From Longivirga aurantiaca (lineage in GTDB: Bacteria > Actinomycetota > Actinomycetes > S36-B12 > CAIYMF01), in contig NZ_JBHSTI010000008.1 in NCBI RefSeq assembly GCF_042660085.1, positions 2,055,604 through 2,087,603 of the forward strand: a stretch of 32,000 bases of DNA, written 5' to 3'. The translations under genes were made by a program, and so were the position numbers. Position 1 is the stretch's first letter. Each line of letters starts with the position of its first letter. Below, piece after piece: positions 14,610-32,000 of this stretch. The notes beneath the pieces were generated by a model. That model was not told where the DNA came from, made no database searches, and saw only the letters and a program-made list of their open reading frames with translations.

Positions 14610-14614
14610 TCCGG

Positions 14615-15931: not shown

Positions 15932-16330
15932 GGCGTGAGATCTCTCTTCTGTGCGTCCCGTGTCGGGGGGGTGGGTGAGGGTCGTGCGCCGCGTCAGGCG
16001 GCTGAGTGCGGGGGCGGCCACGAGGGCCGGGACGCGCGCCCGGGGAGGGCGGTGGGTGCGACCGCGGGACGACGAAGGCCGGAGAGTCTCTCTCCGGCCT
16101 CGGGCGCGAGTCTGTCGGGTCCCGCTAGGGACGGTCGCACGGCCGCATGCCGGGCATTCGACACATCTGCGACGACACGCGACCGAGGTCCACGTGACGG
16201 CGTGAGGTGAGGGCCGGGCGGCGATGCATGGACAGGACCGTAGCAACGGGCACGGAGGTGCGACAACGCGGGGTCGCGGAACACCCCTTGTTGCAAGGAC
16301 TTTGCAGGACTCGGCGGAGCCCCGGCAGGC
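15932..16330 (-). promoter_or_regulatory. long untranslated leader/promoter region of metY-metX (possible riboswitch or attenuator; class not established)
   Basis: 399 nt without a credible ORF, between the stop of the upstream gene (16331) and the metY ATG. It contains a perfect hairpin at 16076-16100. Confidence 0.3.
16076..16100 (-). terminator. strong hairpin: either the terminator of the upstream glycan operon or an attenuator in the metY leader
   Basis: AGGCCGGAGAG-tct-CTCTCCGGCCT is a perfect 11-bp stem with a 3-nt loop. On the minus strand it is followed by TCGTCGTC. It lies 231 nt below the upstream stop and 145 nt above the metY ATG. Confidence 0.5.
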
Positions 16331-17992: not shown

Positions 17993-18251
17993 CGTTCCCC
18001 CTGACTGACCTGCCGTCCACCGGGTACGCCCGGCGGGACCTGACTCCTAGTGTCCTGCACTCCTCCGACTGAATCGGTGGCTCATGAACGCACCTTGAGA
18101 ATCAGGCGGTTCTTCGGCCCCCGAACGGGTGGAGCATCCGTCACTGCATGGATACTCCAGCACCGTTTCCATCACGTTGCTTCCACCGAACGGCTGAACG
18201 TCGGACGCCACGCGGTGAGACGTCACCCGTATGGGTGAACGACGGCGACGG

Positions 18252-19760
18252 TCAGTGAGTTACAGGCGCCGGGGCGTACCGACGGTCGCCCGCGCTGCGG
18301 GCTCCGACCGCCGCCGCGAGCAGGCCCCAGACCACCCACATCGGCTGCGGCATCCCGCTGGCGGTGAAGTAGGGGAAGAAGAAGTTGATCACCGGGGCGA
18401 TGGCCGCGATACCCATCACCGAGGCTGCCAGCGCGATCTCCGCAGCCGAGTCGGCGGTGCGCAGGAACGCCTTGGCCGCGCGCCAGGACAGGTAGACGAC
18501 GGCGGCCCCGGCCACGAGCAGCGGGATCCCGCCGCGCAGCAGAAGGGTGATGTAGCCGGACTCGGTGTGGTCCCAGCTGATCCCCGGCGGGTCGGCCGGG
18601 CCGTAGCCCGTGACCCACATGCCCTGGAGCGCCGGGAGGTACTGGTCGCTCCAGACGATCCATCGGTAGAGGATCGTCTGCGGCACGAGAGAGTCGCCGG
18701 CGGTCGGCGTCGCCCTGGTCGCCTGCCCCTGCTCCGCCAGCCGCTCGCCGATGATCGGGAAGAACACGATCAGACCCACCGCTCCCCCGACCACGAGCCA
18801 GGCGAGGACGAGCCTCAGGCGCTTGATGGCCCAGCCGACGACGAGCACGCCGAGGACGAGGCCTCCGAGGATCGTGAAGGTCAGTGTGAACACCAGCGAG
18901 ACGCAGGCGATCCCCAGCGTGCCCACGAGCCACCACGTGCCGAGCACCGTCGTGTCGCGCTTGAGCAGGAGGGCGACCATGAGCAGCGACACGACCACGA
19001 GGTAGCCGCCGAGCGGGTGCCACATCGGGAACACGCTCGTCGCGCGCATGACGGGGTCGTAGCCGGGCGTGATGAAGATGCCCGTGCCGGACAGGCTCAC
19101 GGCGAGGTTCTGGAAGAACGCCGGGCCCACCATCTGCGCGATCGCGAGGAGGCTCACCGGGATGCTGGCGAGGATGAGCGCCCGCATCGCCAGCACGCGC
19201 AGGGCCGTGGTCGGGAAGGCGGCGGCCACGGTGCGGTAGAGCAGCAGGAACTGGATCGGACCGAGCATCGTGTTGATGTCGTCGCCGGTGATCATGGTCT
19301 GCTGCAGCGCCGAGTTGAGGATGCCGAAGGCCGCGGTGCCGAGGCAGTAGACGAGGGCCGCCCAGTCCCAGGCGCGCCACCGTGGTCCGGGCAGGGCCTT
19401 GGCCGCGAAGCCGAGCACCACGAGGGCACCGAAGACGACCAGCACCTCGGAGACCTTGAGACCCGGGATGCCGAGGCCGCGGCGCAGCCCCGACGTGATG
19501 GGCACCAGGGCGACGACCACGAGCGCGAGCAGCACGGGGCGCTGCGCCAGCGCGAGGCCGAGCGCGACCGCCACGATCACGGCCACCCCGAGCACCGGCG
19601 ACTGCACGGCCAGTGCTCCGGCGACCGCGGTGGCGCCGAGAGCGCCCAGGATGATCGCCCACGCGGGCAGGGGGACGACGTCCAGAACCCGCAGCTCGCG
19701 GGCCGCTGCCCGGGCCACAGGGGCCCGGGGCGCGGACGGCAGCTGCGGGGCGAGGGTCAC
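18252..19760 (-). CDS. O-antigen ligase/polymerase family (Wzy-like) integral membrane protein
   Basis: ORF 18252..20864 trimmed to the GTG at 19760, which overlaps the upstream stop (GTGA). It has about 10-12 TM segments and a large late loop (GERLAEQGQATRATPTAGDSLVPQT...), the usual Wzy/O-antigen-ligase layout. Confidence 0.75.
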   Translation of the reverse strand: MTLAPQLPSAPRAPVARAAARELRVLDVVPLPAWAIILGALGATAVAGALAVQSPVLGVAVIVAVALGLALAQRPVLLALVVVALVPITSGLRRGLGIPGLKVSEVLVVFGALVVLGFAAKALPGPRWRAWDWAALVYCLGTAAFGILNSALQQTMITGDDINTMLGPIQFLLLYRTVAAAFPTTALRVLAMRALILASIPVSLLAIAQMVGPAFFQNLAVSLSGTGIFITPGYDPVMRATSVFPMWHPLGGYLVVVSLLMVALLLKRDTTVLGTWWLVGTLGIACVSLVFTLTFTILGGLVLGVLVVGWAIKRLRLVLAWLVVGGAVGLIVFFPIIGERLAEQGQATRATPTAGDSLVPQTILYRWIVWSDQYLPALQGMWVTGYGPADPPGISWDHTESGYITLLLRGGIPLLVAGAAVVYLSWRAAKAFLRTADSAAEIALAASVMGIAAIAPVINFFFPYFTASGMPQPMWVVWGLLAAAVGARSAGDRRYAPAPVTH

Positions 19761-20905
19761 GCGCGCGGCTCGAGCCGGTCGGAGAGGTTGACGGTGCTCG
19801 CGCCGGCGGCGGAGGCGAGGTGCTTCGGGGCGAGCAGGCCCCAGACCACGGCCACGCCGTACTCCCCGAGCCGGACGAGGTTGTCGCGGACGACGGCGAC
19901 ACGGGTGCCCTCGCGGACGACCATGACCACCAGGTCGCTCATCTGGGCGCGCAGCTCGGCGCCCTCGCCGCTTCCCGGTGCTCCGACCGCGACGACTCCG
20001 ATGTCGCCGGAGTCCTCCGCGGCGCGGCCGCGGACGAGGTCCTGGCCCGTCGAGGTCGAGGACGACGTCGCGGCGACGGCCGGCACGGGGGTGTCGCCCG
20101 GGGAGTCGGGGCCGAGGCTCGCCAGCAGCGCCTTGACGTCGTCGCGCGACATCGGCGCGGTGGCCACGACCGCGACCTCCGGTGCGGGGACGCCGGAGAG
20201 CGCCCGCCACCGGTAGGCGAGGGCGCGGGCCTCGGCCGGCGTGACCGTGGCCCAGGCAGTGGCCGGGGTGCCGAGGAGGTCGGCGAGGTCGTCCACCGAG
20301 TCGATCCGGCGGTCCGAGCGCTCGAGCGCGAAGGCCGCCAGCAGGCCCACGAGGAGGCCGAGAAGCCCGCCGATGAGCAGGGAGGACGAGCTGGACTCGC
20401 CCATCCGCGCGGCCTCGGAGGGGACGGTCACGAGCTTCAGGCTGCCGCGGGCGATCTGCCCCGGCGGGATCGCGCGCGTCACCGTGGCCGCGACGGCGGT
20501 GGCCGAGTCGACCGCCACGATCGCCTGCCGGGACACCACGTCGATCCGGATGAGCGCGGTGCCGGGGTCGCTGGCGACGGTGAGGCTGTCGCGCAGGTCC
20601 TCGGTGCTGACGTCCGCCACGGTCGCGGCGGCCGACATGACGGCGTCGTCGAGCGGGATCAGCGTGGCGTAGTTGGTCGCGAGCTTCGCCGCGGCATCCG
20701 GCGACCCGGGGGGCGTCTGTCCTGCACCGACGGCGGGCACGATGACCACGGCCTCCGCGAGGTACTGCGGCGGCGTGCGCGAGGACACGAGGAAGGACAC
20801 GAGGATCCCGAGCAGGAAGCAGGTGAGCACGATGTACCACCGCCGCTGGACGGGCTTCTTCCATCGGCGGAGCGACCGGCGGATGCTGCCGGCGGGCTTG
20901 GTCAT
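19757..20905 (-). CDS. Wzz-like polysaccharide co-polymerase (chain-length determinant) with a degenerate BY-kinase-like C-terminal domain
   Basis: ORF 19757..21574 trimmed to the ATG at 20905 (ATGA overlap). It has TM1 (WYIVLTCFLLGILVSFLV), an extracytoplasmic domain starting PPQYLAEAVV, and TM2 (LLIGGLLGLLVGLLAAFAL). The cytoplasmic domain aligns to BY-kinases but lacks the Walker A lysine. Confidence 0.7.
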   Translation of the reverse strand: MTKPAGSIRRSLRRWKKPVQRRWYIVLTCFLLGILVSFLVSSRTPPQYLAEAVVIVPAVGAGQTPPGSPDAAAKLATNYATLIPLDDAVMSAAATVADVSTEDLRDSLTVASDPGTALIRIDVVSRQAIVAVDSATAVAATVTRAIPPGQIARGSLKLVTVPSEAARMGESSSSSLLIGGLLGLLVGLLAAFALERSDRRIDSVDDLADLLGTPATAWATVTPAEARALAYRWRALSGVPAPEVAVVATAPMSRDDVKALLASLGPDSPGDTPVPAVAATSSSTSTGQDLVRGRAAEDSGDIGVVAVGAPGSGEGAELRAQMSDLVVMVVREGTRVAVVRDNLVRLGEYGVAVVWGLLAPKHLASAAGASTVNLSDRLEPRA

Positions 20906-21963
20906 GGGAGTCGTGCCTCCGTTGCTGGCTCGGCGTCGGACGCCGGGTCGTCGTGCAGGTCGGTGGAGCCGCTGGGGTCCGGGAGGGCCAGCATCTCCAG
21001 CAGCTCCTGCCGCTGAGTGTCCCAGCGTCGCTGCTGGCGTGCGCGCACGGTGTCGAGGTCGCGCACGAGGCGGTCGTGGTCGCGCACCGCGAGGGCGAGC
21101 CCCGCGGCGATGCTGTCGCGGTCGTCCCCGCAGGTGACGGCCTCGGGGAAGAGCTCGCGCATGGTGCGAGTGTCGCTCATGACCAGCACCCGACGCGCGT
21201 AGCCCGCCTCGTACGCGGCACGCATCACCGAGGTCGGCTCGGTCGTGAGCGCGAGCAGGATGTCGCAGCCGTCCACCTCGGCGGCGTACGCAGCCTGGTC
21301 GAGCCAGCCGGTCAGCCGGACGTTGGCGGGCAGGTCGTCGAGGATCCCGGCAGGGGCTCGACGCGGGTCGCCGGTGACGAGCACGTCGAGCTCGGGCAGC
21401 GAGCGGGCCGCGGCGACGACCTCGGCCACCGGCTCGTCGGAGGCGAAGACGCAGGAGAACAGCACCTGCGGCCGACGGCCGTCGAGCGGCCGGGCGGGCG
21501 AGGTGGTCCAGTGCGGCGGCGCTTCGTGCAGCACCAGCGGGCGACCGCCCCACGACCGCACGACCTGCGCCCACGACTCGGTGGTGACGAGCACGCCGTC
21601 GGCCTTGCGCGCGAGCCTCGCCGTGATGCGCAGCATCTTCTGCGCCTGCGCGTTGTCCTTGGCACCGAACGACGCCGGGTGGCTGTCGAGAACGAACCGC
21701 GCCCGGGCGAGGCGGGCGTACGCGAGCGCGATGACTCCGGGGTAGACGGGCGGGTTCTGCACGACGACCGCGCGGGGACGCGACCGGGCGAGCCGTCCGA
21801 CGGTGACCAGCGAGCTGACGGCGTAGCGCAGCGGCGTGGCCTTCCGGGCGGTGAGCCGCTTCGGGTAGATCGTGACGGCCTCGCCGTCGAGATCGGCGGC
21901 CAGGTCGCGGGCGCGGCCGGCGGTCGGAGCCCAGGCGAGGAACTGCACGCGCGCGCGGCTCAT
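20902..21963 (-). CDS. glycosyltransferase (GT-B fold, GT4-like)
   Basis: ORF 20902..22173 trimmed to the ATG at 21963, with ATGA overlaps at both ends. The two-domain layout and its position between other glycan genes fit a glycosyltransferase. The motifs are divergent, so the family is tentative. Confidence 0.6.
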   Translation of the reverse strand: MSRARVQFLAWAPTAGRARDLAADLDGEAVTIYPKRLTARKATPLRYAVSSLVTVGRLARSRPRAVVVQNPPVYPGVIALAYARLARARFVLDSHPASFGAKDNAQAQKMLRITARLARKADGVLVTTESWAQVVRSWGGRPLVLHEAPPHWTTSPARPLDGRRPQVLFSCVFASDEPVAEVVAAARSLPELDVLVTGDPRRAPAGILDDLPANVRLTGWLDQAAYAAEVDGCDILLALTTEPTSVMRAAYEAGYARRVLVMSDTRTMRELFPEAVTCGDDRDSIAAGLALAVRDHDRLVRDLDTVRARQQRRWDTQRQELLEMLALPDPSGSTDLHDDPASDAEPATEARLP

Positions 21964-22916
21964 GACCCGCCGTCCCGCAGGAGCTGGAAGACGGGCGGGT
22001 CCGGCACGACCTCGACCGTGCGCGCCATGGCGCGGCGGAGGACCTCGGCGTCGAGCGCGTCCACCTCGCACGCGATCGCCACGCCGCGACGGTCGAGCTC
22101 GGCCGCGATCTGGACCTGGTGGTCGTCGACGTGCTCGCCGTGCACGAGCCGGCGCGGCAGCAGCACCGCGCACTTGCCCTCAGCCATCGCGAGCAGGCCG
22201 GAGCCGGTGCCCGAGTGCCCGACCACGAGGTCGGCCTCGCGCGCCGCGGCCGACAGGTCGGCGGACGGGATGCTGTGCTTGCCGTCGACGGGCAGGCCGG
22301 AGAGGTCGGTCTCGCCGGTCTGCCACAGGACCTCGGCGTCCGCCGGGAGCACCTCGAGCAGCTTCTCGACGGCGCGGCGGAATCCGTACGGCGCGATGGT
22401 GCCGAGCGTCACGACGACCTTCCTCGGGACGGCTGGTGCGTCGGGCAGGTCGGGGCCCGGACGGAAGCCGTCGAGGATCGACCCCGAGTAGTGCCAGCGG
22501 CCGCCGGCCCAGGCCGGGTACTGGCTGTAGGTGTTGACGCCGGGGATGCGCGACACCAGCTTCCCCGACAGCGACGGGCCGTCGGCGCGCGCGGCGCTCT
22601 CGACGTAGTGGCAGGTGATGCCGCGCGCCCGGGCCGGGACCATGAACGACACTGCGACGCTCGCGCCGGTCGAGACGACGCGGTCGTACTTCCCCGTGCG
22701 CAGCAGGTCGTTGGCGGTGCGGCCGATCCTGACCGCGACGGCGAGGTCGCGCGGTGCGGCGTACGGGACGTAGACGACGTCCTCGCCCGCGAGCAGCGAG
22801 CGCGACTGCGGGGTGTCGAAGGTGACGAAGGTGACGTCGCCGATCGGCAGACGCGGACGCAGGGTCCACATCTGCTGGAGGTGGCCGCCTCCCGAGCAGA
22901 CGAGCAGGGTGGTCAC
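21960..22916 (-). CDS. single-chain Alg14-like + Alg13-like (GT28 C-terminal type, MurG-related) glycosyltransferase
   Basis: ORF 21960..23696 trimmed to the GTG at 22916 (GTGA overlap). The N-terminal half reads LLVCSGGGHLQQM (Alg14/MurG-N-like). The C-terminal half reads VVVTLGT...VVGHSGTGSGLLAMAEGKCAVLLPR...HGEHVDDHQVQIAAEL (Glyco_tran_28_C-like). Confidence 0.6.
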   Translation of the reverse strand: MTTLLVCSGGGHLQQMWTLRPRLPIGDVTFVTFDTPQSRSLLAGEDVVYVPYAAPRDLAVAVRIGRTANDLLRTGKYDRVVSTGASVAVSFMVPARARGITCHYVESAARADGPSLSGKLVSRIPGVNTYSQYPAWAGGRWHYSGSILDGFRPGPDLPDAPAVPRKVVVTLGTIAPYGFRRAVEKLLEVLPADAEVLWQTGETDLSGLPVDGKHSIPSADLSAAAREADLVVGHSGTGSGLLAMAEGKCAVLLPRRLVHGEHVDDHQVQIAAELDRRGVAIACEVDALDAEVLRRAMARTVEVVPDPPVFQLLRDGGS

Positions 22917-23941
22917 GACGTGCCTTCCTGGTAGCCGGGCGAGACGTACGAGGCGCCCGGCGTCCCCGCGGGGAGCGCGGCCCCGGCCGCCGTCGTGCGC
23001 AGCTCGACGGCGTCGGCCCAGACCGACGGCGGGCGGAGCATCCCCTCGAGGTCGCTGCGCTGGTCGACGAGCACGATGTCCCGTGCGCTGAGCCACGGGA
23101 CGACGTCGTCGGTCCAGAGCAGGTACGCCGCACCGCCGTTCGCGCCGTCGGGCTCGCCGGTGATCACGATGCGCCGCAGGTCGAACTCCTCCGGCGGGGT
23201 GTCGACGAACTGCTGCGGCAGCAGGAAGAGGCCCTGGTACTCGGTGGATCCCGTGAGGCCGTCGACGCGCAGGCGCGCCGGACCGGCCCAGGTCTGCAGG
23301 ACGTCGGCGTGGTGGCCGTCGCGCGACCCGTGGACGGTCTCGACGTGGATGTTCTGCAGGACCACGGTGGCGCCCTCGGACTGGTCGAGGTTGATCCCCT
23401 CGGCGAGGTCCTGGCCGCTGATGCGCAGGCCCTCGACGTGGATCGTGCCCGTCTGGTTCTTCAGCAGCAGGCCGGTGCGCTTGCGCGAGTCCGACGCCTC
23501 GGACTTCGGCGGCACCACGATCTCGCCGCCGAGCAGGACGACGTTGCGGCCGCCCTCGATGCGCAGGCCGCCGCTGAGCAGGAGCGGCGTCGCCGGCAGC
23601 TTGACGATGTAGTCGCGGTCGGACCGGAGCTCGATCTTGGGGGTGGTGGCGGTGACCGTGACGAGGGTGGGGCTCGTGAGCTTCGGGGGTGCCCACGAGA
23701 GCCGGTCGGCCGTCTCGGCCGCCACCGACGGAGCGGGGAGGGTGGGCTCGGGCCCGGCCGCCGACTCCCCCCGCTGGGTCAGGGCGAGCGCCACCACCAG
23801 GGCGGCGAGGGCCAGCACGCAGATGCCCACGAGGAGGAGCAGACGGTTCGAGCGCGGGGGTGCGGAGTCGTCGGACGGCCGGGGACGCTCGTGCACGGAC
23901 GTCGTGCGCACCGTCACCCCCTGGTCGTCGAGCATGAGCAT
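22913..23941 (-). CDS. N-terminally membrane-anchored extracytoplasmic protein with an unassigned, probably carbohydrate-active, domain (paralog of the C-terminus of 24152..25759)
   Basis: A single TM segment (LLLLVGICVLALAALVVALAL), then about 260 aa that align with the neighbouring gene product along their whole length. Shared blocks are listed in the findings. Confidence 0.7.
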   Translation of the reverse strand: MLMLDDQGVTVRTTSVHERPRPSDDSAPPRSNRLLLLVGICVLALAALVVALALTQRGESAAGPEPTLPAPSVAAETADRLSWAPPKLTSPTLVTVTATTPKIELRSDRDYIVKLPATPLLLSGGLRIEGGRNVVLLGGEIVVPPKSEASDSRKRTGLLLKNQTGTIHVEGLRISGQDLAEGINLDQSEGATVVLQNIHVETVHGSRDGHHADVLQTWAGPARLRVDGLTGSTEYQGLFLLPQQFVDTPPEEFDLRRIVITGEPDGANGGAAYLLWTDDVVPWLSARDIVLVDQRSDLEGMLRPPSVWADAVELRTTAAGAALPAGTPGASYVSPGYQEGTS

Positions 23942-24100
23942 GGTCGGGAGAAGCCTAGGCGAGCGGTGACGGATAGTCGCGATCGCGCGGCCGGATCTAC
24001 CTGTTCGGCCTACCCCGGACGCACGCGCGTCGAGCGGGGTGAGCGCGCCCGGTCACGCAGAGCGACGAACGGTGGTGTCCCGAGGTTCCCGGAACGACAC

Positions 24101-24127
24101 GGCCCCTCCTGCGGAGCAGGAGGGGCC
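24101..24127 (-). terminator. intrinsic-terminator-type hairpin after the malectin-domain gene
   Basis: GGCCCCTCCTGC-gga-GCAGGAGGGGCC is a perfect 12-bp stem with a 3-nt loop, 25 nt downstream of the stop at 24152 on the minus strand. Confidence 0.7.
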
Positions 24128-24151
24128 GGTGCGAGGAGCACGGTGCGAGGG

Positions 24152-25759
24152 TCAGCCCGCGTATCCCGGGCTGGTGTAGCCGGCACCCGCGGAGGCCGCG
24201 AAGTCGACCGGTGCGCGGCCCTTGGTGACGTTCGGCCAGTCGCTGGAGGAGTTCCAGTTGCCGAGCCCGCCGGAGGTGAAGACGTTGTAGGTCGCGATGC
24301 CCTGCGGAGGACGGACGCGCCAGAGGATGTACTTCGCCTGGGCGTTGCCCACGATCTCGACGTTCTTCAGGACCCAGTTCTCGGTGACCGCGGAGGCCGT
24401 CGAGGTGTCGTGCGGGTTGAGGAACATGCCCTGGTAGCCGGTGGTGGCGGTGAAGCCGTCGACCAGGAGGGTGGTCGGGCCGTTCCAGCACTGGAGCGCG
24501 TCGGCGTGGTTGGTGGCCTGGGTCCCGGTGAGGACGGTGTCGATGGACACGTTCTGGACCTGCACCTTGGCCAGCGGGGCGCTGATGTTGATGCCCTCCG
24601 ACAGGTTGCCCGACGAGGAGATGAACCTGACGCCCTCGAGGTGGATCGTGCCGGTCTGGCTGAGGAAGTACGCGGCCCGCTTGACCATGCCGTCGGCGGG
24701 GACGCCGGGGCCGGTGCCGGAGCTGTACCAGCCGCCCGCCACGTCGACGGTTCCGCCGATGATGACGATGTTGCGGCCGCCCACGATCTCGAGGCCATGG
24801 GTGTTCCTGTACACCGCGTCGGTCGGGAGCCTGAGGATGTAGTCGGTGCCGGCCGAGAGGTTGATCCTGCCGTCGGGCTTGCTGGCGAGATCGATCGTCA
24901 CCGGGTTGGTGAGCGCCGGCGGGGCCCAGGAGAGCTCGGTGCCGCTCGGAGCCGGCATGGTGGCCACGGGCGCGGGGCTCGTGGTGACCGGCGCGGGAGA
25001 GCTGGTCACGGGCGCGGGGCTCGTGGTGACCGGCGCGGGCGAGGTGGTCACGGGCGCGGGGCTCGTGGTGACCGGCGCGGGCGAGCTGGTCGCGGGCGCG
25101 GGCGAGCTGGTCACGGGCGCGGGGGTCGTGCTCTCGGGTGCCGCAGCGACGTCGACGGGGTCGACGCGCAGGCCGGACACGATGGCGTAGTCCCTGCGCG
25201 CCTTGAACGCCAGCGACAGTGCGCCGTCCTTGACCGTCACCGTCGCGGAGCGGGTGAGCTCGACGTCGTGGCCGACGACCTTGTAGACGTCCAGGTTGGA
25301 GAAGACGGTGACGCCCTCGGCAGTCGCGCTGAAGACGCGCTTGCCCGAGGCCTTCCAGTACGGCTCGGCCATCACCAGCGTGACCTTGTAGGTGCCGTTC
25401 GCGACGGGGACCTTGTAGGCGCTCATCCCGAAGCGGTAGTTGCGCAGGACGCTGCCGTCCTCGGTGCCGGTGATCGGATCGGCGGTCTTGCCGAGCTTGC
25501 CACCGGTGAAGCCCGAGTCCGCGGTCCACACGGTGCCGTCGCTCGCGGTGAGGCCGGGGCCGCCCGCGTCGATGTTCAGGGACGGGATCGCTGCGTCTCC
25601 GGCGGAGGCGCCGAAGACCGAGGTGAGGCCGGCGACCACGAGGGCGGAGGCGACCCCGACGGCGGTGGCCGAGCGGCGGGACGAGGCGGCGGTGCGACCG
25701 GTGCCGGCGACGGTGCGTCGCGGCATCTCCGTGTGGCGCCCGGATGACGTGGTAGCCAT
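24152..25759 (-). CDS. secreted three-part protein: malectin-like carbohydrate-binding domain, P/T/S-repeat linker, unassigned C-terminal domain
   Basis: ORF 24152..25906 trimmed to the ATG at 25759, 9 nt after GAGGAG. The signal is Tat-like (SSRRSATAVGVASALVVAGLTSVFGASA). A malectin pattern is present (IDAGG...W.AD..F.GG...ITGT.D..L....RFG...Y..PV.NGTYKVTL..AE........GKRVF......G.....NLDVY). The linker is 8 x SPAPVTT. Confidence 0.8.
   Translation of the reverse strand: MATTSSGRHTEMPRRTVAGTGRTAASSRRSATAVGVASALVVAGLTSVFGASAGDAAIPSLNIDAGGPGLTASDGTVWTADSGFTGGKLGKTADPITGTEDGSVLRNYRFGMSAYKVPVANGTYKVTLVMAEPYWKASGKRVFSATAEGVTVFSNLDVYKVVGHDVELTRSATVTVKDGALSLAFKARRDYAIVSGLRVDPVDVAAAPESTTPAPVTSSPAPATSSPAPVTTSPAPVTTSPAPVTTSPAPVTSSPAPVTTSPAPVATMPAPSGTELSWAPPALTNPVTIDLASKPDGRINLSAGTDYILRLPTDAVYRNTHGLEIVGGRNIVIIGGTVDVAGGWYSSGTGPGVPADGMVKRAAYFLSQTGTIHLEGVRFISSSGNLSEGINISAPLAKVQVQNVSIDTVLTGTQATNHADALQCWNGPTTLLVDGFTATTGYQGMFLNPHDTSTASAVTENWVLKNVEIVGNAQAKYILWRVRPPQGIATYNVFTSGGLGNWNSSSDWPNVTKGRAPVDFAASAGAGYTSPGYAG
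24959..25126 (-). repeat. in-frame 21-bp tandem repeat, 8 copies, encoding (S/T)PAP(V/A)(T/S)(T/S)
   Basis: The plus strand shows alternating ggtgaccggcgcgggcgagct / ggtcacgggcgcggggctcgt units. Translation is TPAPVTS SPAPATS SPAPVTT SPAPVTT SPAPVTT SPAPVTS SPAPVTT SPAPVAT. Confidence 0.9.
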
Positions 25760-26186
25760 GATGTTGTGCTCCTCAGTCGGCACTGACGGCTGTGAAGGGC
25801 CGCCTTGCGGAAGTGCGCGAACACATGGGGTTTCGGGACAGCGAGGGGCTGGCTTGACCCCTCTGGGCGCGGATGGGCCATGTGGGTTACGTGCCCAAAG
25901 ACACATCTGCGACGGTCCCCGTCACGCGTCAGGAGGGCCGTCCCTGGCCCGTCCGGAGGAGGTGCTCCTCACCCCGCTGCGGTGCCGCCAGCGGTCCGTC
26001 CGTGTCGACTCCGTCACGCGGGGCGACGCCACTCACCCGATCGGCTCAGGGAGCGACGACCCGAGGGGGTCGGGTCGCCGATATCCGGCCAGTGGCGTGA
26101 TGTGACGTCGCCGACGTCGCTCTCCAGCCGCTCTCGCTCCGGCCGTGGTGCCGCGCCCGTCGCCGCGGATCGCGGCGTGGTCGGGT

Positions 26187-27233
26187 TCACCCGCGAGGAG
26201 CAGCCGCCTCTTGCCAGAGCGCCACGTTCCGGCTCACCTCGACCTCGGCCATGAGCGCATCGGTCCCCTCGTCGGCCGACAGCACGATCCGGTCGAGGAT
26301 CCGAAGGCCCGCGCGGGCCCAGGCGAGGACGAACAGCGCGGGCTCGAGGTCGGCGTCCGCCCTCCGCGCGACGTGCTCGGCGAACACCCGCCGCGCGCCA
26401 CCGTCCGGGCGCACGAGGTCGCGCACGAACACGTCCCGCTCGGCCGCCACGCCGTGCACGGCGGCGTCGGAGAAGGCCAGGAACGCGAGCAGCTGGGCGA
26501 GGTCGTGACCGACCACGCCGCGCTCGAGCCCGAGCTCCCAGTCGACGAGCCCGACCCTCGTGGTGCTGCCGCCGTCGAGGACGAGGATGTTGGGGTGCGC
26601 GGGGTCGCCGTGCTCGAAGACCGTCGGCAGCGTGCGTCCGCGGAGGGGCGACACGGCGTCGCGGGTGGCTGCGATCGTGCCGTGCAGCGCGTGACCGTCG
26701 GGCAGCAGCGCGGCGAGCCGCTCGAGCCGCGGCTCGAGCAGGGTGTCGAGCAGGTCCGTGCCGGAGCGCTCCCCCGTCACGGGCAGCCCGTCGATCCAGG
26801 CGAGGGCGCTGGCCCGGGCACCGGCGTCGGACCGCGCACGGGCGTGGGTCAGCGGCTGGCCCACGAGGGGCGTCTCGAGGAGCACGCGCCGCGACCCCAC
26901 CATCGCGCAGGCCACGACCGACGGCGTGGCCCCGAGCAGGCCGGGGGCGGCCTCGGACAACCGGCGCAGGACCGTCGCCTCGTGCACCACCGCGTGGTCG
27001 TCACGGACCGAGCGGGGCACCTTGAGGACGCTGCGGAGCCGGCCCTTGCGGTCCAGGACGAGGCCGACGACGTGCCGGGACTCCACGAAACCCGGTGTCA
27101 CGAGAAGGATCCGGGCCCCCTCCGGCAGCGCGTCGGACACTGCGGCCGAGGGCGCCGACCAGTCCAGGGGGTCGTCCGTCGCCGGCATGCCTGCCCGGAG
27201 GGCGTCCGCCACCACGTCGAGGTAGGTGCTCAC
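26187..27233 (-). CDS. APH / choline-kinase-fold phosphotransferase family protein
   Basis: ORF 26187..29951 trimmed to the GTG at 27233, which overlaps the flippase stop (GTGA). The kinase catalytic loop FEHGDPAHPNILV and the downstream GLVDWELG (Brenner and DxE-type motifs) are present. Confidence 0.7.
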   Translation of the reverse strand: MSTYLDVVADALRAGMPATDDPLDWSAPSAAVSDALPEGARILLVTPGFVESRHVVGLVLDRKGRLRSVLKVPRSVRDDHAVVHEATVLRRLSEAAPGLLGATPSVVACAMVGSRRVLLETPLVGQPLTHARARSDAGARASALAWIDGLPVTGERSGTDLLDTLLEPRLERLAALLPDGHALHGTIAATRDAVSPLRGRTLPTVFEHGDPAHPNILVLDGGSTTRVGLVDWELGLERGVVGHDLAQLLAFLAFSDAAVHGVAAERDVFVRDLVRPDGGARRVFAEHVARRADADLEPALFVLAWARAGLRILDRIVLSADEGTDALMAEVEVSRNVALWQEAAAPRG

Positions 27234-29344
27234 GGCTCGTCCGTCCGTCCTGTCGCGATACGGTCGCGCGCCACCCACGCCACGAGCCCCACCGAGACCA
27301 GCACGCGCGCCGCGAAGGAGAGCACCCTGCCCCGTCGGCTGCCCTCGTGCCGGTGGAGCGCGGCGAGCACCACCGGCCGGGCGTCGAGGGGGACGAGCAT
27401 CGTGCGGGCGCTGCGGCGCGGCGCCTCCCAGTGGAGCGACACGTCGCGCAGGCCGGCTGCCTCGAGGGCGCGCGTGGTCGAGCGCAGCGAGCGCCGGGTG
27501 GCCGCCACCTCGATCACGACCCAGGTGCCCGACGGGACGTCGCGCAGGGCGTCGGAGAACTCCGAGGGGTGGAGGCGCCCGAGACGGACGCCCGCGCCGA
27601 CCTCGGGCAGCAGGAACAGCGGGTCGTCGACACGGGGGTCGAGCGCCGCGAGCGCACGCGCCGTGGCGCCCTGCTCCCCCTCCGCTGCCGGAGCGCTGCC
27701 CGAGCCGCCGGCGCTGGAGGCCACGCGGTAGGGGTTGCGGGTGCTCCGGGCCCCGCGGGACGAACCCCTGCGGAGCAGCGGACCCGCGACCGGGATCTTC
27801 AGCAGCTCGGGGAACGTGTGCGCGACGTCGAGGTACGGCAGCGTCACGAACAGGACTCCGAGGGTGGCCGCACCCGTCAGGAGCACGGACAGGATGAACC
27901 CGGCCCCGACCCAGTACTGCAGCAGCGACGTCAGCACGACGCCGAGGAGCATGGCGGTGTACGGCGCCGCCATCCACGGCTCGACGACACCGGACGGGAG
28001 CCCGCGCAGGCCGAGCTGGCGCACCACGTTCCCGAGGACGAGCGACAGCGCCATGCCGACAGCGGCGCCCCACGCGCCGAGCGGCGGGATGAGGGCGAAG
28101 GCGAGCACCGTGCCCAGCACGAGCACCGCCATGTTGGAGAAGAAGATGAAGCGCAGCCGACCGGCGGTGGCCATGAGGATCGCGCTGAAGCCCGACGCCG
28201 CCTGGAACCAGAAGCCGAACCCGAGGATCGCGAGCAGCGGGGCGCTGTCGGCGTACTGCGAGCCGAGCAGCGTCACCGTGACGGGCTCGGCGAACGAGAC
28301 GCTGAGGACCAGCGCCGGGTACGACACGAGGGCGACCCACAGCGCGGTGCGCCAGTAGGTGAGGCGCACCCCCTCCATGTCGCCGCGCTGCCAGAGCCGC
28401 GTCACCATCGGCGGGAACAGCACCCAGAAGGCGCCCGCGGCGGCCATCGAGAGCTGCGCGATGGGCATGACCGCCCGCAGCGACGCGACGTCGGCCGCGG
28501 TGCCGACCGCGCCGAGGACGAACGTCGGCAGCGCCATGACCACGACGTAGACCAGCGAGGAGGTCAGGAGGGGGAAGCCCTCGCGGAGCATGGGGCGCAC
28601 CGGCATCGTCACGCGGCCGTGCAGCTCGGCGAAGAAGCCGAGCCGCGAGAGCAGACGCAGCACCATGACGACGTAGATCGACACGCCGAGGAGCGAGGCG
28701 AGGACGTACCCGACGGTCAGGCCGTAGACGCCGGCGCCGAGGAAGAACACCGTGACGATCGCGGTGAGGCGAAGGCCCGGCTCGAGCAGGTAGCGCCGTA
28801 CGAAGACGGCACGCGCGCTCGCGAACGTCGCGAACGTGTTGACCACCATCGCGTCGAGCGCGGCGAGAGGCGCGAGCAGCACCATGAGCACCAGCAGGTT
28901 CGCCGCCGTCTCGGACGGCGCGATGCCCGGCGACAGGCGTCCGTGCCAGAGCAGCACGAGCAGGAAGACGATCGAGCCGAGGGAGATCACCACGAGCGCC
29001 TCGGTCACGAGGACGCCGACGACCTTGCGGTCGTCCCCCTCCTCGTCGTACTTCGCGAGGAAGCGGGAGTCGACCCGGTCGAGACCGAGAGGGATCAACG
29101 ACTGCACGAGCGTGACGATCGAGAGCGCCCAGGCGAACGCGCCGTAGTCGTCCTTGGTGAGCACGCGGACGAGCAGCAGCTGGATGACCAGCCCGAGACC
29201 CATGCCGAGCAGGCGACCGACGAGCAGCAGCGCGGAGCCGCGCATCTGCGACTTCGACGACGCCTTGCCCCGCGGGGCGCGCACCGGAGCAGCCTCGCCG
29301 TCCCCGGGCACCGCGTTGCTGTCGAGCGCCTCCTCGGCGCTCAC
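27230..29344 (-). CDS. Wzx-like MOP-superfamily polysaccharide flippase fused to a roughly 190-aa soluble C-terminal domain of unknown function
   Basis: About 12-14 TM segments beginning GSALLLVGRLLGMGLGLVIQLLLVRVL (typical Wzx N-terminus). A Gly/Ser/Ala linker and a non-membrane domain follow, up to the stop at 27230. I chose the GTG at 29344 because it forms a GTGA overlap with the upstream stop, as at other junctions in the locus. Alternative starts are the GTG at 29359 (ORF track) and the ATG at 29245. Confidence 0.75.
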   Translation of the reverse strand: MSAEEALDSNAVPGDGEAAPVRAPRGKASSKSQMRGSALLLVGRLLGMGLGLVIQLLLVRVLTKDDYGAFAWALSIVTLVQSLIPLGLDRVDSRFLAKYDEEGDDRKVVGVLVTEALVVISLGSIVFLLVLLWHGRLSPGIAPSETAANLLVLMVLLAPLAALDAMVVNTFATFASARAVFVRRYLLEPGLRLTAIVTVFFLGAGVYGLTVGYVLASLLGVSIYVVMVLRLLSRLGFFAELHGRVTMPVRPMLREGFPLLTSSLVYVVVMALPTFVLGAVGTAADVASLRAVMPIAQLSMAAAGAFWVLFPPMVTRLWQRGDMEGVRLTYWRTALWVALVSYPALVLSVSFAEPVTVTLLGSQYADSAPLLAILGFGFWFQAASGFSAILMATAGRLRFIFFSNMAVLVLGTVLAFALIPPLGAWGAAVGMALSLVLGNVVRQLGLRGLPSGVVEPWMAAPYTAMLLGVVLTSLLQYWVGAGFILSVLLTGAATLGVLFVTLPYLDVAHTFPELLKIPVAGPLLRRGSSRGARSTRNPYRVASSAGGSGSAPAAEGEQGATARALAALDPRVDDPLFLLPEVGAGVRLGRLHPSEFSDALRDVPSGTWVVIEVAATRRSLRSTTRALEAAGLRDVSLHWEAPRRSARTMLVPLDARPVVLAALHRHEGSRRGRVLSFAARVLVSVGLVAWVARDRIATGRTDEP

Positions 29345-30597
29345 CGCACGCCCGACCACGTGCGCCAGACGAGTGACTCGACCTCGCGGCGCACGGTCTC
29401 GGCATCGTTCGTCGCATCCACGACGACGACATTGTCATACCGGTCGCGCAGGTCGAGGTAGCGCTGGCGCCGCTCCTCGAGGATCTCCGGCGTGTGCTCA
29501 CCCTTCCGGTCGAACATGAGCTGCCCCGGGGCGTCGAGCACGACGAAGACGTCGGGTGCCGGGCAGCTGTGCAGGAGCAGCGAGTAGCTGACGCGGGCGC
29601 GGAAGGTCGGCTTGCCCGGGCGCAGCAGGGCGTCGACGACGTGCCGGTCGTAGAGCACGACCCGGCCGCGGCGCTGGTCGACCGCGGCCTTGGTCGAGCG
29701 CCAGCGCAGCTTCGCGAGCTTGAGGCCGAGACCCACCCCCGGGACGCGCTGCCAGGCGGGCTCGTGCGGGTCCACTCGGAAGACCCCGAGGTAGCGCACC
29801 GAGACGGCGAGCGGGATCGCGTCGCGCAGACCCTCGACGAGGGTCGTCTTGCCGGCGCCGTCGGGGCCGAGCACCGCGAGGGCGACACCGGGGCTGCCCG
29901 GCGACCTCCAGGAGAGCGCGTCGCGCAGCCGCCGGGCCTGGCGGGCGGCACGACCGGGTCGACGCTTGAGCACCGGCTCCCACCGGGCGATCAGCTCACG
30001 GAGCTGGGAGTCGTCGCCGCCCAGCGCGGCGGCCGCGGCGGCAGCCCCGGCTGCGGCCTGGCCGGCACCGAGCAGGGCGTCCACCGCACCGGGCAACGGG
30101 CCGCCCGGGTGCGGTACGCCGGTGAGCGAGGCAGTCCCGCGGTGCACGGCGCGTACGAGGGCGAGCCAGTCGCGGTCCTCGGCGGCGACCCGGCGCACGC
30201 CGTCGTCACCGAGCTCGGCGCGCGCGAGCAGGTCGTCGAGCACCGGCAGCACGGCGCTCCTCGGCCCGGCCGCCTCGACGACGGGGAGGAGGTCGAGCAC
30301 GAGCCAGCCGTCGTCGGTGGAGGACCGGCGCACGAGCAGCCGGTGCGGCAGGTGCTCGGGCGCACGCCGGAGCACGAAGCCGGTGGCGACGAGCGCGGGC
30401 AGCACCCGCGGCAGGTCTGCCTCGCGCACCAGGACGTCGACGTCGCCGCCGGGACGGTCGAGCGCGCCGCGCAGCACGGCCCAGGCGGCGCCGGTGGAGT
30501 CGAGCGCGCTGAACGCGGCCACGAGGTCGGGGTGGACGTCGGCAGCACGGTCGGGGCTGGCGACGGGGCCCGCCTCGTCCGACGGCGGAGTGAGCAC
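29341..30597 (-). CDS. two-domain protein: N-terminal nucleotidyltransferase-like domain (NTP_transf_5-like) + C-terminal P-loop kinase (thymidylate-kinase-like fold)
   Basis: ORF 29341..31761 trimmed to the GTG at 30597, which shares 1 nt with the upstream TAG. The N-terminal half reads AWAVLRGALDRPGGDVDVLV...ATGF. The C-terminal half has Walker A (VLGPDGAGKTTL) and LYDRHVVD. The start position is uncertain. Confidence 0.6.
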   Translation of the reverse strand: MLTPPSDEAGPVASPDRAADVHPDLVAAFSALDSTGAAWAVLRGALDRPGGDVDVLVREADLPRVLPALVATGFVLRRAPEHLPHRLLVRRSSTDDGWLVLDLLPVVEAAGPRSAVLPVLDDLLARAELGDDGVRRVAAEDRDWLALVRAVHRGTASLTGVPHPGGPLPGAVDALLGAGQAAAGAAAAAAALGGDDSQLRELIARWEPVLKRRPGRAARQARRLRDALSWRSPGSPGVALAVLGPDGAGKTTLVEGLRDAIPLAVSVRYLGVFRVDPHEPAWQRVPGVGLGLKLAKLRWRSTKAAVDQRRGRVVLYDRHVVDALLRPGKPTFRARVSYSLLLHSCPAPDVFVVLDAPGQLMFDRKGEHTPEILEERRQRYLDLRDRYDNVVVVDATNDAETVRREVESLVWRTWSGVR

Positions 30598-32000
30598 TAC
30601 GACAGGACCTCGATCGCGTTGACCTGAGGGTTGTCGAGCCCGGGGACGCGACCGAACGAGATCACGACGGGGCCGGACGTGGTCACCGTGAACTCGCGGA
30701 CGACGCCGCGCCTGGCACCGCCGGCCGCCGCGAAGATGTCGAACCGCGTCAGCACCTTCGTGCCGTTGATGCTCACGTCGAACGCGCGCTTGCCCGCAGC
30801 AGTCCAGTAGTTCTCCGAGAAGTAGAGGCGCACCGTGTAGGTGCCGGCCTGCGGCACGGGCATGGTCCACACCATGTCCTTGCCGCCCGACACGTCGTAC
30901 CGGTACGTCTGGAAGAGCGCGGCCGGCGTGCCCGCGGGCACGGACGGGTCGGAGACGTTGATGGCCGACGTCGTCGACCCCGTCTTGAGCTTGGCCGCGG
31001 CGGTGTTCGCCCAGGACGAGGGCGACGACGAGGTGTCGGCCAGCCAGCCGCCGGACAGCGCCGCGCCACCGGCGTTCACGCGGTCGATGGGCGTGCCGCT
31101 CGTGAGCGGCGGGCTCACGACGACCGTGCGCGAGGCGGAGGTCGAGCCTCCGGAGTTGGTCGCCGTGAGCGTGACCACGTACGAACCGGCCGCGGTGAAG
31201 GTGTACGAGGGGTTGCGGCTCGTGCTGGTGCCGCCGTCGCCGAAGTCCCATGCCCACGAGGTCGGGGCGCCCGTGGACGTGTCGGTGAACGAGACCGTCA
31301 CCGGAGCAGTGCCCGACGTGGTCGAGGCCGTGAACGACGCGGTCGGCGGCGTCACGACGGGCTCGGACACCACGATGGTCGCGGACGCCGACGTCGAGCC
31401 GCCCGCGTTGGTCGCTGTGAGCGTGACGGTGTACGTGCCCGGCGTGGAGTAGGTGTGCGCCGGGCTTGCGACGGTGCTGGTGCCGCCGTCGCCGAAGTCC
31501 CACGCCCACGACGTGGGCGCACCGGCGGAGGTGTCGGTGAAGGACACCGTGACCGGCGCGGTGCCCGAGGTGGTGGACGACGTGAACGACGCCGTGGGCG
31601 CGGTGACCGAGGCGGTCGTGACGACGACGGTCGTGGACGCCGACGTGGAGCCGCCGTCGTTGGTCGCGGTCAGCGTGACGGTGTACGTGCCGGGATCGGC
31701 GAAGAGGTGCGACGGGTTCTGCGCGGTGCTGGTGCCGCCGTCCCCGAACGACCACGACCACGACGTGGGACCGCCCGTGGACGTGTCGGTGAACGAGACA
31801 CCGAGCGGCGCCGCACCCGTGGTGGCCGACGGCGTGAACGACGCGGTCGGAGCGGTCGGGGCGGCGGAGCCGGAGTCGGCGTACCAGTAGCGCGGCGAGA
31901 TCTCCGTCGCAGCGAGCACAACGACCCCCGAGGTCGCCGTCGCCGGCTGCTTGCTCGAGGTCGCGTTGTTCATCGTCGCGTTCGCGACGTCGCGCAGCAC
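30597..32000 (-). CDS. secreted protein with three PKD domains and a C-terminal malectin-like domain (N-terminus beyond the right edge)
   Basis: Three roughly 84-aa repeats match the PKD signature (VSFTDTS.G.PTSW.W.FGDGGTS....P.H.Y...G.Y.VTLTATN.GGS.S). The malectin pattern follows (IDRVNAGG...W.AD...YRYD...M.W..PV..GTYTVRLYF.E......GKRAFDVSINGT.VL..FDI). The ORF is open at 32000. Confidence 0.8.
   Translation of the reverse strand: MLRDVANATMNNATSSKQPATATSGVVVLAATEISPRYWYADSGSAAPTAPTASFTPSATTGAAPLGVSFTDTSTGGPTSWSWSFGDGGTSTAQNPSHLFADPGTYTVTLTATNDGGSTSASTTVVVTTASVTAPTASFTSSTTSGTAPVTVSFTDTSAGAPTSWAWDFGDGGTSTVASPAHTYSTPGTYTVTLTATNAGGSTSASATIVVSEPVVTPPTASFTASTTSGTAPVTVSFTDTSTGAPTSWAWDFGDGGTSTSRNPSYTFTAAGSYVVTLTATNSGGSTSASRTVVVSPPLTSGTPIDRVNAGGAALSGGWLADTSSSPSSWANTAAAKLKTGSTTSAINVSDPSVPAGTPAALFQTYRYDVSGGKDMVWTMPVPQAGTYTVRLYFSENYWTAAGKRAFDVSINGTKVLTRFDIFAAAGGARRGVVREFTVTTSGPVVISFGRVPGLDNPQVNAIEVLS
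31116..31850 (-). repeat. three tandem, roughly 252-bp intragenic repeats (PKD domain units)
   Basis: The repeat period is 84 codons. Units 2 and 3 are near-identical at the protein level (PTASFT.STTSGTAPVTVSFTDTS.GAPTSWAWDFGDGGTST...). Confidence 0.8.

What the first reader, a model, noticed from the sequence alone, without database searches (positions are those of the whole stretch)
26187..30597. Two different kinase folds plus a nucleotidyltransferase-like domain flank the flippase: a possible substituent activation and phosphorylation module
**Seen:**
- 29341..30597 combines a GDVDVLV-type nucleotidyltransferase-like N-terminal half with a Walker-A kinase half (GPDGAGKTT, LYDRH..D).
- 26187..27233 has the HGD....N and DWE motifs of the APH/choline-kinase fold.
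- Both are start/stop-overlapped with the flippase gene.

**Established:** APH-fold kinases such as LicA, together with a nucleotidyltransferase, activate small substituents such as phosphocholine for attachment to surface glycans. P-loop kinases phosphorylate sugars or nucleotides.

**Inference:** the locus may decorate its repeat unit with a phosphate-linked substituent by a route that does not use the classical LicC-type transferase. The substrate is unknown, and I know of no characterised example of this gene combination.
Basis: partly seen in the sequence, partly recalled or inferred. Interest (0 to 1): 0.6.

Follow-up and report, generated by a model that had tools for sequence, protein, structure and literature searches.

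The report
Flippase-linked kinase and nucleotidyltransferase module
Three translationally coupled genes in an actinobacterial surface-sugar operon encode four intact parts (a nucleotidyltransferase fused to a thymidylate-kinase-like kinase, the sugar-unit flippase carrying a methyltransferase-like adaptor domain, and an antibiotic/choline-kinase-type kinase) that recur together and as fusions in other bacteria, and whose chemistry nobody has tested.

Summary
Observation confirmed. 30597..29341 (-) encodes a 418-aa fusion: a Pol-beta-type nucleotidyltransferase (PF14907-like) plus a thymidylate-kinase-fold P-loop kinase. 27233..26187 (-) encodes an APH/choline-kinase-fold kinase. Catalytic residues are invariant across homologues in both.

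The ~190-aa tail of the flippase is a methyltransferase-like domain ("MTL") with no Pfam family. Elsewhere it stands alone or is fused to the NTase-kinase, to the APH kinase, or to Wzx.

The order NTase-kinase > Wzx > MTL > APH recurs in several actinobacterial families and one unclassified MAG. In 401 sampled genomes of the phylum, 6 of 7 carriers of this APH family also carry the fusion, within ~3.5 kb.

Function is inferred only. Most likely this is a flippase-tethered cytoplasmic module that puts a phosphate-based group on the lipid-linked repeat unit before export.

- It is not a Lic pathway: no LicC or LicD was found in the window.
- It is not housekeeping Tmk, which lies elsewhere in the genome.
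- It is not a resistance or defence gene by curated cut-offs.
- A WbdD relation was not shown.

The only characterised PF14907 enzyme is PsmN. E. coli yghQRST is a partial, unstudied analogue. Earlier notes of this scan describe what appears to be the same module on other DNA; no paper found describes it.

The parts
29341..30597 (-). NTase-kinase fusion gene ('NTK', 418 aa)
   Evidence: 69 homologue clusters were found. Invariant or near-invariant residues: D52, D54, D102; D246-G-A-G-K250; D317-R318; R364-K-G-E367.
30025..30540 (-). Pol-beta-type nucleotidyltransferase domain (residues ~20-191), PF14907-like
   Evidence: 19 of 22 homologues hit PF14907. Fold matches: MenT1 Z 10.2 and ANT(2'') Z 8.5. 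The strand carrying D-V-D and the later strand carrying D102 fit the NTase carboxylate triad.
29344..29901 (-). Thymidylate-kinase-fold P-loop kinase domain (residues ~233-418)
   Evidence: PF02223 at 25.1 bits; TIGR00041 at 26 bits against a cut-off of 83. TMPK structures: Z 15.5, Foldseek E 1e-8. The P-loop Asp, the DR(H) motif and a basic LID are kept. TMPK's base-reading S..AYQ is replaced by D..LRP.
27851..29359 (-). MOP/Wzx flippase, membrane part (start 29359, 29344 or 29245)
   Evidence: PF01943 at 64.8 bits and PF13440 at 40.1 bits. Start-codon candidates are read.
27233..27823 (-). Methyltransferase-like adaptor domain ('MTL') fused to the flippase C-terminus
   Evidence: No Pfam hit. 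39 relatives were found, occurring alone or fused to NTK, APH or Wzx. In the P0110 model the domain has a class I MTase fold: Z 10.9 to 1vl5 and 10.7 to the anamorsin N-domain. No SAM motif is conserved. The window copy appears to lack ~40 aa of the Rossmann core, by my reading of DPLFLLP as the DWRFLLP motif, which MAFFT did not align.
26187..27233 (-). APH/choline-kinase-fold kinase (348 aa)
   Evidence: PF01636 at 35.9 bits. K71, E85, H208, D210, N215 and D231-W-E233 are invariant in 16 homologues. The start overlaps the flippase stop as GTGA.
30597..32000 (-). Context: 3' part of an upstream secreted protein (three PKD domains plus malectin) in the same operon
   Evidence: PKD_4 at 196 bits and Malectin at 71.6 bits. 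Its TAG shares one base with the NTK GTG.
16331..25906 (-). Context: rest of the glycan operon
   Evidence: Malectin protein, unknown 342-aa protein, GT28-like, GT4, unknown 369-aa protein, Wzy-like protein (24.3 bits, below the 31.7 cut-off), Bac_transf priming transferase.

Best explanation
The three genes form a conserved four-part cytoplasmic tailoring module attached to the Wzx flippase of a Wzx/Wzy polysaccharide pathway.

Proposed mechanism:
1. The methyltransferase-like domain on the flippase tail is a non-catalytic adaptor. It docks the APH-fold kinase, and probably the NTase-kinase, at the cytoplasmic mouth of the flippase.
2. The APH-fold kinase phosphorylates a sugar hydroxyl of the undecaprenyl-diphosphate-linked repeat unit.
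3. The thymidylate-kinase-like domain is built to phosphorylate a phosphate monoester. It either extends that phosphate or handles the nucleotide by-product.
4. The PF14907 nucleotidyltransferase domain adds a nucleotidyl or sugar-phosphate group to the phosphorylated site, as PsmN is required to do on phospho-serine.
5. The decorated unit is then flipped and polymerised.

Shown: folds, intact catalytic residues, gene order, translational coupling, fusions, co-occurrence. Inferred: every substrate, the order of the steps and the docking role.
For: - Folds and invariant catalytic residues.
- Order NTK > Wzx > MTL > APH in the window, L064, L065 and L008. L056 and L058 show the same order but without an MTL hit.
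- NTK-MTL followed directly by APH in L004 and L055. L001 and L002 carry NTK2 > APH plus a separate NTK-MTL.
- MTL is fused to Wzx (window, P0099), to NTK (P0029, P0045, P0105) or to APH (P0110, P0122, P0130), or stands alone (P0097, P0098, P0104).
- The MTL-APH fusion models as one rigid unit, pTM 0.90.
- 6 of 7 genomes with this APH family among 401 sampled also carry NTK, within ~3.5 kb; NTK background is 27/401.
- Bac_transf, Wzx or Wzy lies within 10 kb in most loci.
- No LicC, LicD or other substituent transferase was seen in the window ORFs scanned.
- PsmN, a PF14907 enzyme, is required for adding hexose to a kinase-phosphorylated substrate, and its D134A/D136A mutant is dead (PMC6993621).
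- From established knowledge, not tested here: WaaP, WaaY and KdkA are kinase-fold enzymes that phosphorylate lipid-linked glycans on the cytoplasmic face.
Against: - No chemistry is known for any member, and no structure of this organism's polymer is at hand.
- The APH domain's nearest folds are small-molecule kinases.
- The kinase half keeps NMP-kinase hallmarks (P-loop Asp, DR motif). This fits a soluble nucleotide-like substrate at least as well as a glycan.
- About half of the full-length NTK loci lack this APH family and MTL, so the parts can work apart.
- Fusion of MTL to Wzx could arise from simple adjacency.
- The authors of the PsmN paper could not exclude that PsmN only makes a donor for a host transferase.
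Confidence: 0.42

Rival explanations
1. Soluble donor synthesis. The APH-fold kinase phosphorylates a free alcohol or sugar. The NTase domain joins it to an NTP to give NDP-X. The TMPK-like domain phosphorylates that nucleotide or recycles NMP. One of the locus's transferases then uses the donor. This would work like LicA/LicC, AmgK/MurU, or the NTase-kinase fusions PAPS synthase, CoA synthase and NadR.
For: - The APH domain is structurally tied with LicA, fructosamine-3-kinases, homoserine kinase and aminoglycoside kinases, Z 14-15.
- The kinase half keeps TMPK's P-loop Asp and DR motif. NadR appears among the fold matches.
- The window locus has no nucleotide-sugar synthesis genes.
- A phosphonate gene-cluster family has PEP mutase flanked by a thymidylate kinase and PF14907 (10.1101/2021.04.07.438883).
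Against: - Pol-beta-fold NTases are not the known sugar- or alcohol-phosphate nucleotidylyltransferases, which have the LicC/MurU type of fold (established knowledge).
- No LicD-like or other transferase for NDP-X was found in the window ORFs scanned.
- A soluble pathway gives no reason for the repeated fusion of the MTL domain to the flippase.
- No PEP mutase lies near the locus.
Confidence: 0.28
2. Control rather than decoration. The kinases cap or mark the repeat unit or growing chain, or phosphorylate the flippase or polymerase, to license export or set chain length. This would work like WbdD (methyltransferase plus kinase) or BY-kinases.
For: - The MTL-APH fusions have the same domain order as WbdD, methyltransferase-type then kinase-type (WbdD described in PMC3482155, listed).
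- The module is tied tightly to Wzx.
Against: - WbdD did not appear in a profile search of PDB sequences, nor among the top 50 rows of Foldseek or VIA-align.
- MTL has no conserved SAM-binding motif and is partly deleted in this window.
- WbdD works in ABC-transporter pathways, not Wzx/Wzy ones (established knowledge).
- Protein kinases score lower than small-molecule kinases: YabT and Rio1 at Z 10.6 against 15.
Confidence: 0.12
3. The genes are unrelated to the glycan. They would be an antibiotic-resistance kinase, a MenT/AbiEii-like toxin, a defence system, or a spare thymidylate kinase that merely sits in the operon.
For: - The best fold match of the N half is the toxin MenT1.
- Pfam names the third gene 'APH'.
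- Some source databases call the fusion 'thymidylate kinase'.
Against: - NCBIfam resistance models score 17 bits against cut-offs of 205-675.
- No credible PADLOC match: the only hits were the P-loop against two AAA-type models at 13-15 bits.
- A true Tmk (161 bits) lies on another contig.
- Synteny and fusions with Wzx are conserved across families.
Confidence: 0.04

Closest known systems
PsmN with PsmK of the pseudomycoidin lasso-peptide cluster (Bacillus pseudomycoides; PMC6993621)
   Same: PsmN is annotated as an uncharacterised nucleotidyltransferase. It models on ANT(2'') and needs its D-x-D pair. It works with a partner kinase and is required for adding hexose to a phosphorylated substrate. 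The window's N half hits PF14907 and ANT(2'').
   Different: The substrate there is a peptide serine and the partner is an HPr-kinase-type enzyme. There is no fusion to a TMPK-like domain, no flippase and no APH kinase. I did not test PsmN's own Pfam membership. The PF14907 link to PsmN comes from earlier scan notes.
Thymidylate kinase (Tmk; PF02223, TIGR00041; e.g. PDB 5x7j, 4s35)
   Same: Same fold, Z 15.5. The P-loop G-x-D-G-x-G-K-T-T with its Asp, the D-R-(Y/F/H) motif and a basic LID are all kept.
   Different: It scores 26 bits against the 83-bit TIGR00041 cut-off. The base-recognition segment is replaced. It is fused to an NTase. The genome has a true Tmk elsewhere.
Lic phosphocholine pathway (LicA kinase, LicC cytidylyltransferase, LicD transferase)
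   Same: An APH/choline-kinase-fold kinase sits in a surface-glycan locus. LicA 4r77 matches at Z 15.2. By published classification, which I cite from memory, LicD has an NTase fold.
   Different: No LicC-type or LicD-type gene was found in the window ORFs scanned. The Pfam hit is PF01636, and no choline-kinase family was listed for the window APH. The LicA score is tied with many other kinases.
E. coli K-12 yghQ-yghR-yghS / yghT (uncharacterised)
   Same: YghR, YghS and YghT match my HMM of the kinase half at 39-56 bits. They lie beside YghQ, a Polysacc_synt/MOP flippase at 36.4 bits.
   Different: They have no NTase domain, and no APH or MTL partner was seen in that stretch. In K-12 an IS5 element lies immediately next to yghQ. 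No functional study was found.
WbdD of E. coli O9a (methyltransferase + kinase chain terminator)
   Same: Same domain order as the MTL-APH fusions of this family. WbdD acts on a lipid-linked glycan at the cytoplasmic face.
   Different: WbdD was not detected by sequence profile or in the top structural lists. MTL lacks SAM motifs. The export pathway is different.

Membership tests
Thymidylate kinase (TIGR00041 / PF02223) | Score above the curated family cut-off | tested here: not met
   TIGR00041 at 26 bits against 83.25; PF02223 at 25.1 against 27.
Thymidylate kinase (TIGR00041 / PF02223) | TMPK fold with P-loop, DR(Y/F/H) motif and LID | tested here: met
   Z 15.5 to 5x7j. D246-G-A-G-K250, D317-R318 and R364-K365 are invariant.
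Thymidylate kinase (TIGR00041 / PF02223) | It is the genome's housekeeping dTMP kinase | tested here: not met
   A separate Tmk at 161 bits lies on contig C3.
PF14907 NTP_transf_5 (PsmN-type nucleotidyltransferases) | Profile match | tested here: inconclusive
   The window protein scores 15.1 bits against the 31.2 cut-off. 19 of 22 homologues match at E<=1, best E 4.6e-8.
PF14907 NTP_transf_5 (PsmN-type nucleotidyltransferases) | Pol-beta NTase fold with D-x-D and a third carboxylate | tested here: met
   D52 (near-invariant), D54 and D102 are conserved. Fold matches: MenT1 Z 10.2, ANT(2'') Z 8.5.
PF14907 NTP_transf_5 (PsmN-type nucleotidyltransferases) | Acts on a phosphorylated substrate made by a partner kinase | not testable with these tools
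   This needs biochemistry.
APH / choline-kinase superfamily (PF01636) | Profile above cut-off, with the catalytic H-x-D-x4-N and the D-x-E metal loop | tested here: met
   35.9 bits against 23.2. K71, E85, H208, D210, N215, D231 and E233 are invariant.
Aminoglycoside resistance APH enzymes (NCBIfam APH(3'), APH(9)) | Score above the curated cut-off | tested here: not met
   About 17 bits against 205 and 675.
Lic phosphocholine pathway | LicC-type cytidylyltransferase and LicD-type transferase in the locus | tested here: not met
   Neither appeared in Pfam scans of the window ORFs or of selected ORFs in the 17 kb upstream. The whole genome was not searched for them.
WbdD-type kinase-methyltransferase | Detectable sequence or structural relation to WbdD | tested here: inconclusive
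   WbdD was not in the PDB profile search nor in the top 50 rows of Foldseek or VIA. Lower ranks were not seen.
WbdD-type kinase-methyltransferase | SAM-binding methyltransferase domain | tested here: not met
   No conserved glycine-rich motif I or acidic beta-2 residue in 17 MTL sequences. The window copy lacks that segment. This is a sequence inference, not a binding assay.
Anti-phage defence / MenT-AbiEii toxins | Match to a defence-system model | tested here: not met
   PADLOC gave only 13-15-bit P-loop noise. No DUF1814 hit in Pfam.

The most novel reading that the evidence does not exclude
The module is a previously unrecognised kind of flippase-docked enzyme complex. It would install a new class of polysaccharide decoration, such as a diphosphate-, nucleotide- or sugar-phosphate-linked group, on the lipid-linked repeat unit just before export. 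A pseudo-methyltransferase domain would act as the docking hub. The same chemistry would underlie the unstudied yghQRST genes of E. coli and related cassettes in other phyla.
Probability: 0.25. Interest if true: 0.8.

Novelty: new variant of a known kind. Interest (0 to 1): 0.55.

Why it matters
Phosphate-based decorations change the charge, antigenicity, phage recognition and material properties of bacterial surface polymers. The known routes (Lic, PEtN transferases, WaaP-type kinases, Stealth, WbdD) do not include this gene set.

In the data examined here, the four-part module recurs beside the flippase in several actinobacterial families and in an unclassified MAG. Relatives of the fusion occur in Chloroflexota and other MAGs, and a partial analogue exists in E. 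coli. Yet database entries label the fusion only as 'thymidylate kinase' or 'hypothetical'.

Working out its chemistry would add a new step to polysaccharide assembly. It would also correct a frequent mis-annotation. It could further show that Wzx flippases carry docked tailoring enzymes, which bears on how flippases select completed units.

Tried and rejected
Neighbourhoods came from the search for related loci, the genome search and the fetch from genomes instead.
- Phosphonate link: the only paper that mentions PF14907 describes PEP mutase flanked by a thymidylate kinase and PF14907. In this genome the only strong PEP_mutase-family hit is on another contig, and the family rings in 11 of 14 control genomes. 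Rejected for this locus.
- NAGPA phosphodiester glycosidase ~15 kb upstream: it looked like a hint of sugar-phosphodiester chemistry. It is not linked to the module in four other carrier genomes and is common in the controls. Kept only as a passing note.
- WbdD lead: not recovered by sequence profile or in the top structural lists.
- The APH family has no solved close relative by sequence; best profile E is 0.0013.
- Literature searches for thymidylate-kinase-like proteins in polysaccharide loci and for yghQRST found no functional study.
- The plus-strand ORFs 30841..31452 and 31453..31890 have high GC3 but no Pfam hits. They are antisense shadows of the PKD/malectin gene.
- The N-terminal ~200 aa of the 532-aa L056 protein looks Rossmann-like by eye but does not match my MTL HMM. 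It is not counted as MTL.
Full report
**Setting.** The window is ~73% G+C. An earlier scan note names the organism as Longivirga aurantiaca; I did not verify this. Third-position GC picks out one long minus-strand operon. Pfam scans give this gene order:
- secreted protein with three PKD domains and malectin (runs off the window, ends at 30597)
- NTase-kinase fusion ('NTK', 30597..29341)
- MOP/Wzx flippase (29359 or 29344..27230)
- APH-fold kinase (27233..26187)
- malectin protein
- unknown 342-aa protein
- GT28-like transferase
- GT4 transferase
- unknown 369-aa protein
- Wzy-like protein (24.3 bits, below the 31.7 cut-off)
- Bac_transf priming transferase (17992..16331)

The plus-strand ORFs at 30841..31890 are antisense shadows of the PKD/malectin gene.

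**Observation.** The APH GTG overlaps the flippase TGA as GTGA. The NTK TGA overlaps a candidate flippase GTG at 29344 (GTGA) or the longer ORF start at 29359. An ATG at 29245 cannot be excluded. The NTK GTG shares one base with the TAG of the upstream gene.

**NTase-kinase fusion.**
- 69 homologue clusters were found, most ~410-450 aa. Source databases call them 'thymidylate kinase' or leave them unnamed.
- In an alignment of 22, these are invariant or nearly so: D52, D54, D102; the P-loop D246-G-A-G-K250; D317-R318; R364-K-G-E367.
- 22 of 22 hit PF02223 and 19 of 22 hit PF14907 at E<=1.
- The model has pLDDT 86.8 and pTM 0.82.
- The C half is a TMPK fold: Z 15.5 to 5x7j, Foldseek E 1e-8 to 4s35.
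- Residues 20-191 are a Pol-beta NTase fold: MenT1 Z 10.2, ANT(2'') Z 8.5.
- It is not the housekeeping enzyme. TIGR00041 scores 26 bits against 83, and a true Tmk at 161 bits lies on contig C3.
- The kinase half keeps TMPK's P-loop Asp and DR motif, but TMPK's base-reading S..AYQ segment reads D..LRP. The acceptor is therefore probably a phosphate monoester other than dTMP. This is inference.

**APH-fold kinase.**
- PF01636 scores 35.9 bits against a cut-off of 23.2.
- K71, E85, H208-G-D210, N215 and D231-W-E233 are invariant in 16 homologues.
- Resistance models fail.
- No solved structure is close by sequence.

**A fourth part.**
- The flippase carries ~190 soluble residues after its last membrane segment.
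- A full-library search found 39 relatives.
- My HMMs show this 'MTL' domain in four settings:
  - standing alone: P0097, P0098, P0104
  - fused behind NTK: P0029, P0045 of Arthrobacter, P0105
  - fused in front of the APH kinase: P0110, P0122, P0130
  - fused behind Wzx: the window and P0099
- It has no Pfam family.
- I modelled the fusion P0110 because it holds both domains; it is not the window's own protein. The model has pLDDT 90.5 and pTM 0.90, a single rigid unit.
- In that model MTL has a class I methyltransferase fold: Z 10.9 to 1vl5 and 10.7 to the anamorsin N-terminal methyltransferase-like domain.
- The APH part matches APH(3'')-Id and LicA at Z 15.2, MPH-E at 15.0 and fructosamine-3-kinase-like proteins at 14.7. 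These are all tied.
- The 17 aligned MTL sequences share no glycine-rich SAM loop and no acidic beta-2 residue.
- The window copy keeps the conserved motifs (FLLP, G-W, W-H/E-A-P, VPL, RH-G-R-G). It appears to lack ~40 residues of the Rossmann core, if DPLFLLP is read as the DWRFLLP motif, which MAFFT did not align.
- I read MTL as a pseudo-methyltransferase adaptor. This is inference.

- The HMM survey shows NTK > Wzx > MTL > APH in the window, L064, L065 and L008 (an unclassified MAG).
- L056 and L058 have NTK > Wzx > APH with no MTL hit.
- NTK sits directly beside Wzx in L007 and L053.
- NTK-MTL is followed directly by APH in L004 and L055.
- In Arthrobacter L001 and L002, an NTK paralogue is followed by APH, and a separate NTK-MTL gene lies further on. 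In L002 a P450 and an AMP-binding enzyme sit between them.
- Bac_transf lies within 10 kb in many loci.
- In 401 sampled genomes of the phylum, 27 have an NTK match at E<=1e-10. That tally includes three unpublished genomes (G018, G048, G239) with weak partial matches; no other claim rests on them, and the count is 24 of 398 without them.
- The APH family occurs in 7 of the 401. Six of those carry NTK, each within ~3.5 kb. The seventh genome is only 62% complete.
- These genomes are related to each other, so this is a description and not a statistical test.
- About half of the full-length NTK loci show neither this APH family nor MTL.

**Comparison with known systems.**
- The only paper mentioning PF14907 describes a phosphonate cluster family in which PEP mutase is flanked by a thymidylate kinase and PF14907. 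No PEP mutase lies near this locus.
- PsmN is annotated as an uncharacterised NTP transferase that models on ANT(2''). It is needed to add hexose to kinase-phosphorylated pseudomycoidin and is killed by D134A/D136A. Its authors could not say whether it is itself the transferase.
- E. coli YghR, YghS and YghT match my kinase-half HMM at 39-56 bits. They flank YghQ, a Polysacc_synt flippase. No functional study was found.
- WbdD was not recovered by profile or in the top structural lists.
- PADLOC gave nothing credible.

**Mechanism.**
- Best reading, confidence ~0.42: a flippase-docked module decorates the lipid-linked repeat unit with a phosphate-based group.
- The soluble-donor reading (~0.28) remains serious. 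The APH neighbours are small-molecule kinases, and the kinase half looks like an NMP kinase.
- A regulatory or capping role (~0.12) and an unrelated role (~0.04) are less likely.

**Earlier notes of this scan.** They describe what appears to be the same module on other DNA several times. They gave me the PsmN, WbdD and YghRST leads, which I tested as stated. They are not independent support.

Noticed in passing
window 30597..32000 (-), continuing beyond the window: The secreted protein with three PKD domains and a C-terminal malectin domain ends with a TAG that shares one base with the NTase-kinase GTG. The plus-strand ORFs 30841..31452 and 31453..31890 have GC3 ~0.96 but are antisense shadows with no Pfam hit.
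   Followed up: partly
L073:13580-14911 (-), about 15 kb beyond the window end (window-equivalent 45580..46911): A 443-aa protein carries a NAGPA 'phosphodiester glycosidase' domain at 68.5 bits. This family removes a sugar from a sugar-phosphodiester. It is not linked to the module in four other carrier genomes, and the family is common in control genomes.
   Followed up: yes
L002:4141-11839 and L001 (Arthrobacter spp.): There are two NTase-kinase paralogues per locus. The first is followed by the APH kinase and scores lower on the kinase half (94-126 bits against ~200). The second is fused to MTL. In L002 a cytochrome P450 and an AMP-binding (acyl-CoA-synthetase-type) enzyme lie between them.
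   Followed up: partly
L008:5359-8715 and L002:15314-17197: In the MAG locus L008 the module is preceded by two sulfotransferases with a Na+/H+ exchanger gene between them. It also contains a second MTL-APH fusion and a lone TMPK-like gene. A Na+/H+ exchanger also lies near the Arthrobacter locus L002.
   Followed up: no
L070 (E. coli K-12 NC_000913.3 3131341-3134823): yghQ is a Polysacc_synt/MOP flippase with an IS5 element immediately adjacent. It is flanked by yghR, yghS and yghT, which are homologues of the kinase half of the fusion. No functional study was found.
   Followed up: partly
window 13455..16021 (-): Directly downstream of the priming transferase lie a Cys/Met-metabolism PLP enzyme (448 bits) and an alpha/beta hydrolase. 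They look like a metY/metX-type pair and are probably unrelated to the glycan.
   Followed up: no
L056:1395-2630 (+) and L056:2668-3300 (-); same in L058: A second, more distant APH-family protein (PF01636 at 63.6 bits) and a lone weak TMPK-like gene lie ~6 kb from the main module in two related genomes. This suggests extra kinase copies in some loci.
   Followed up: no
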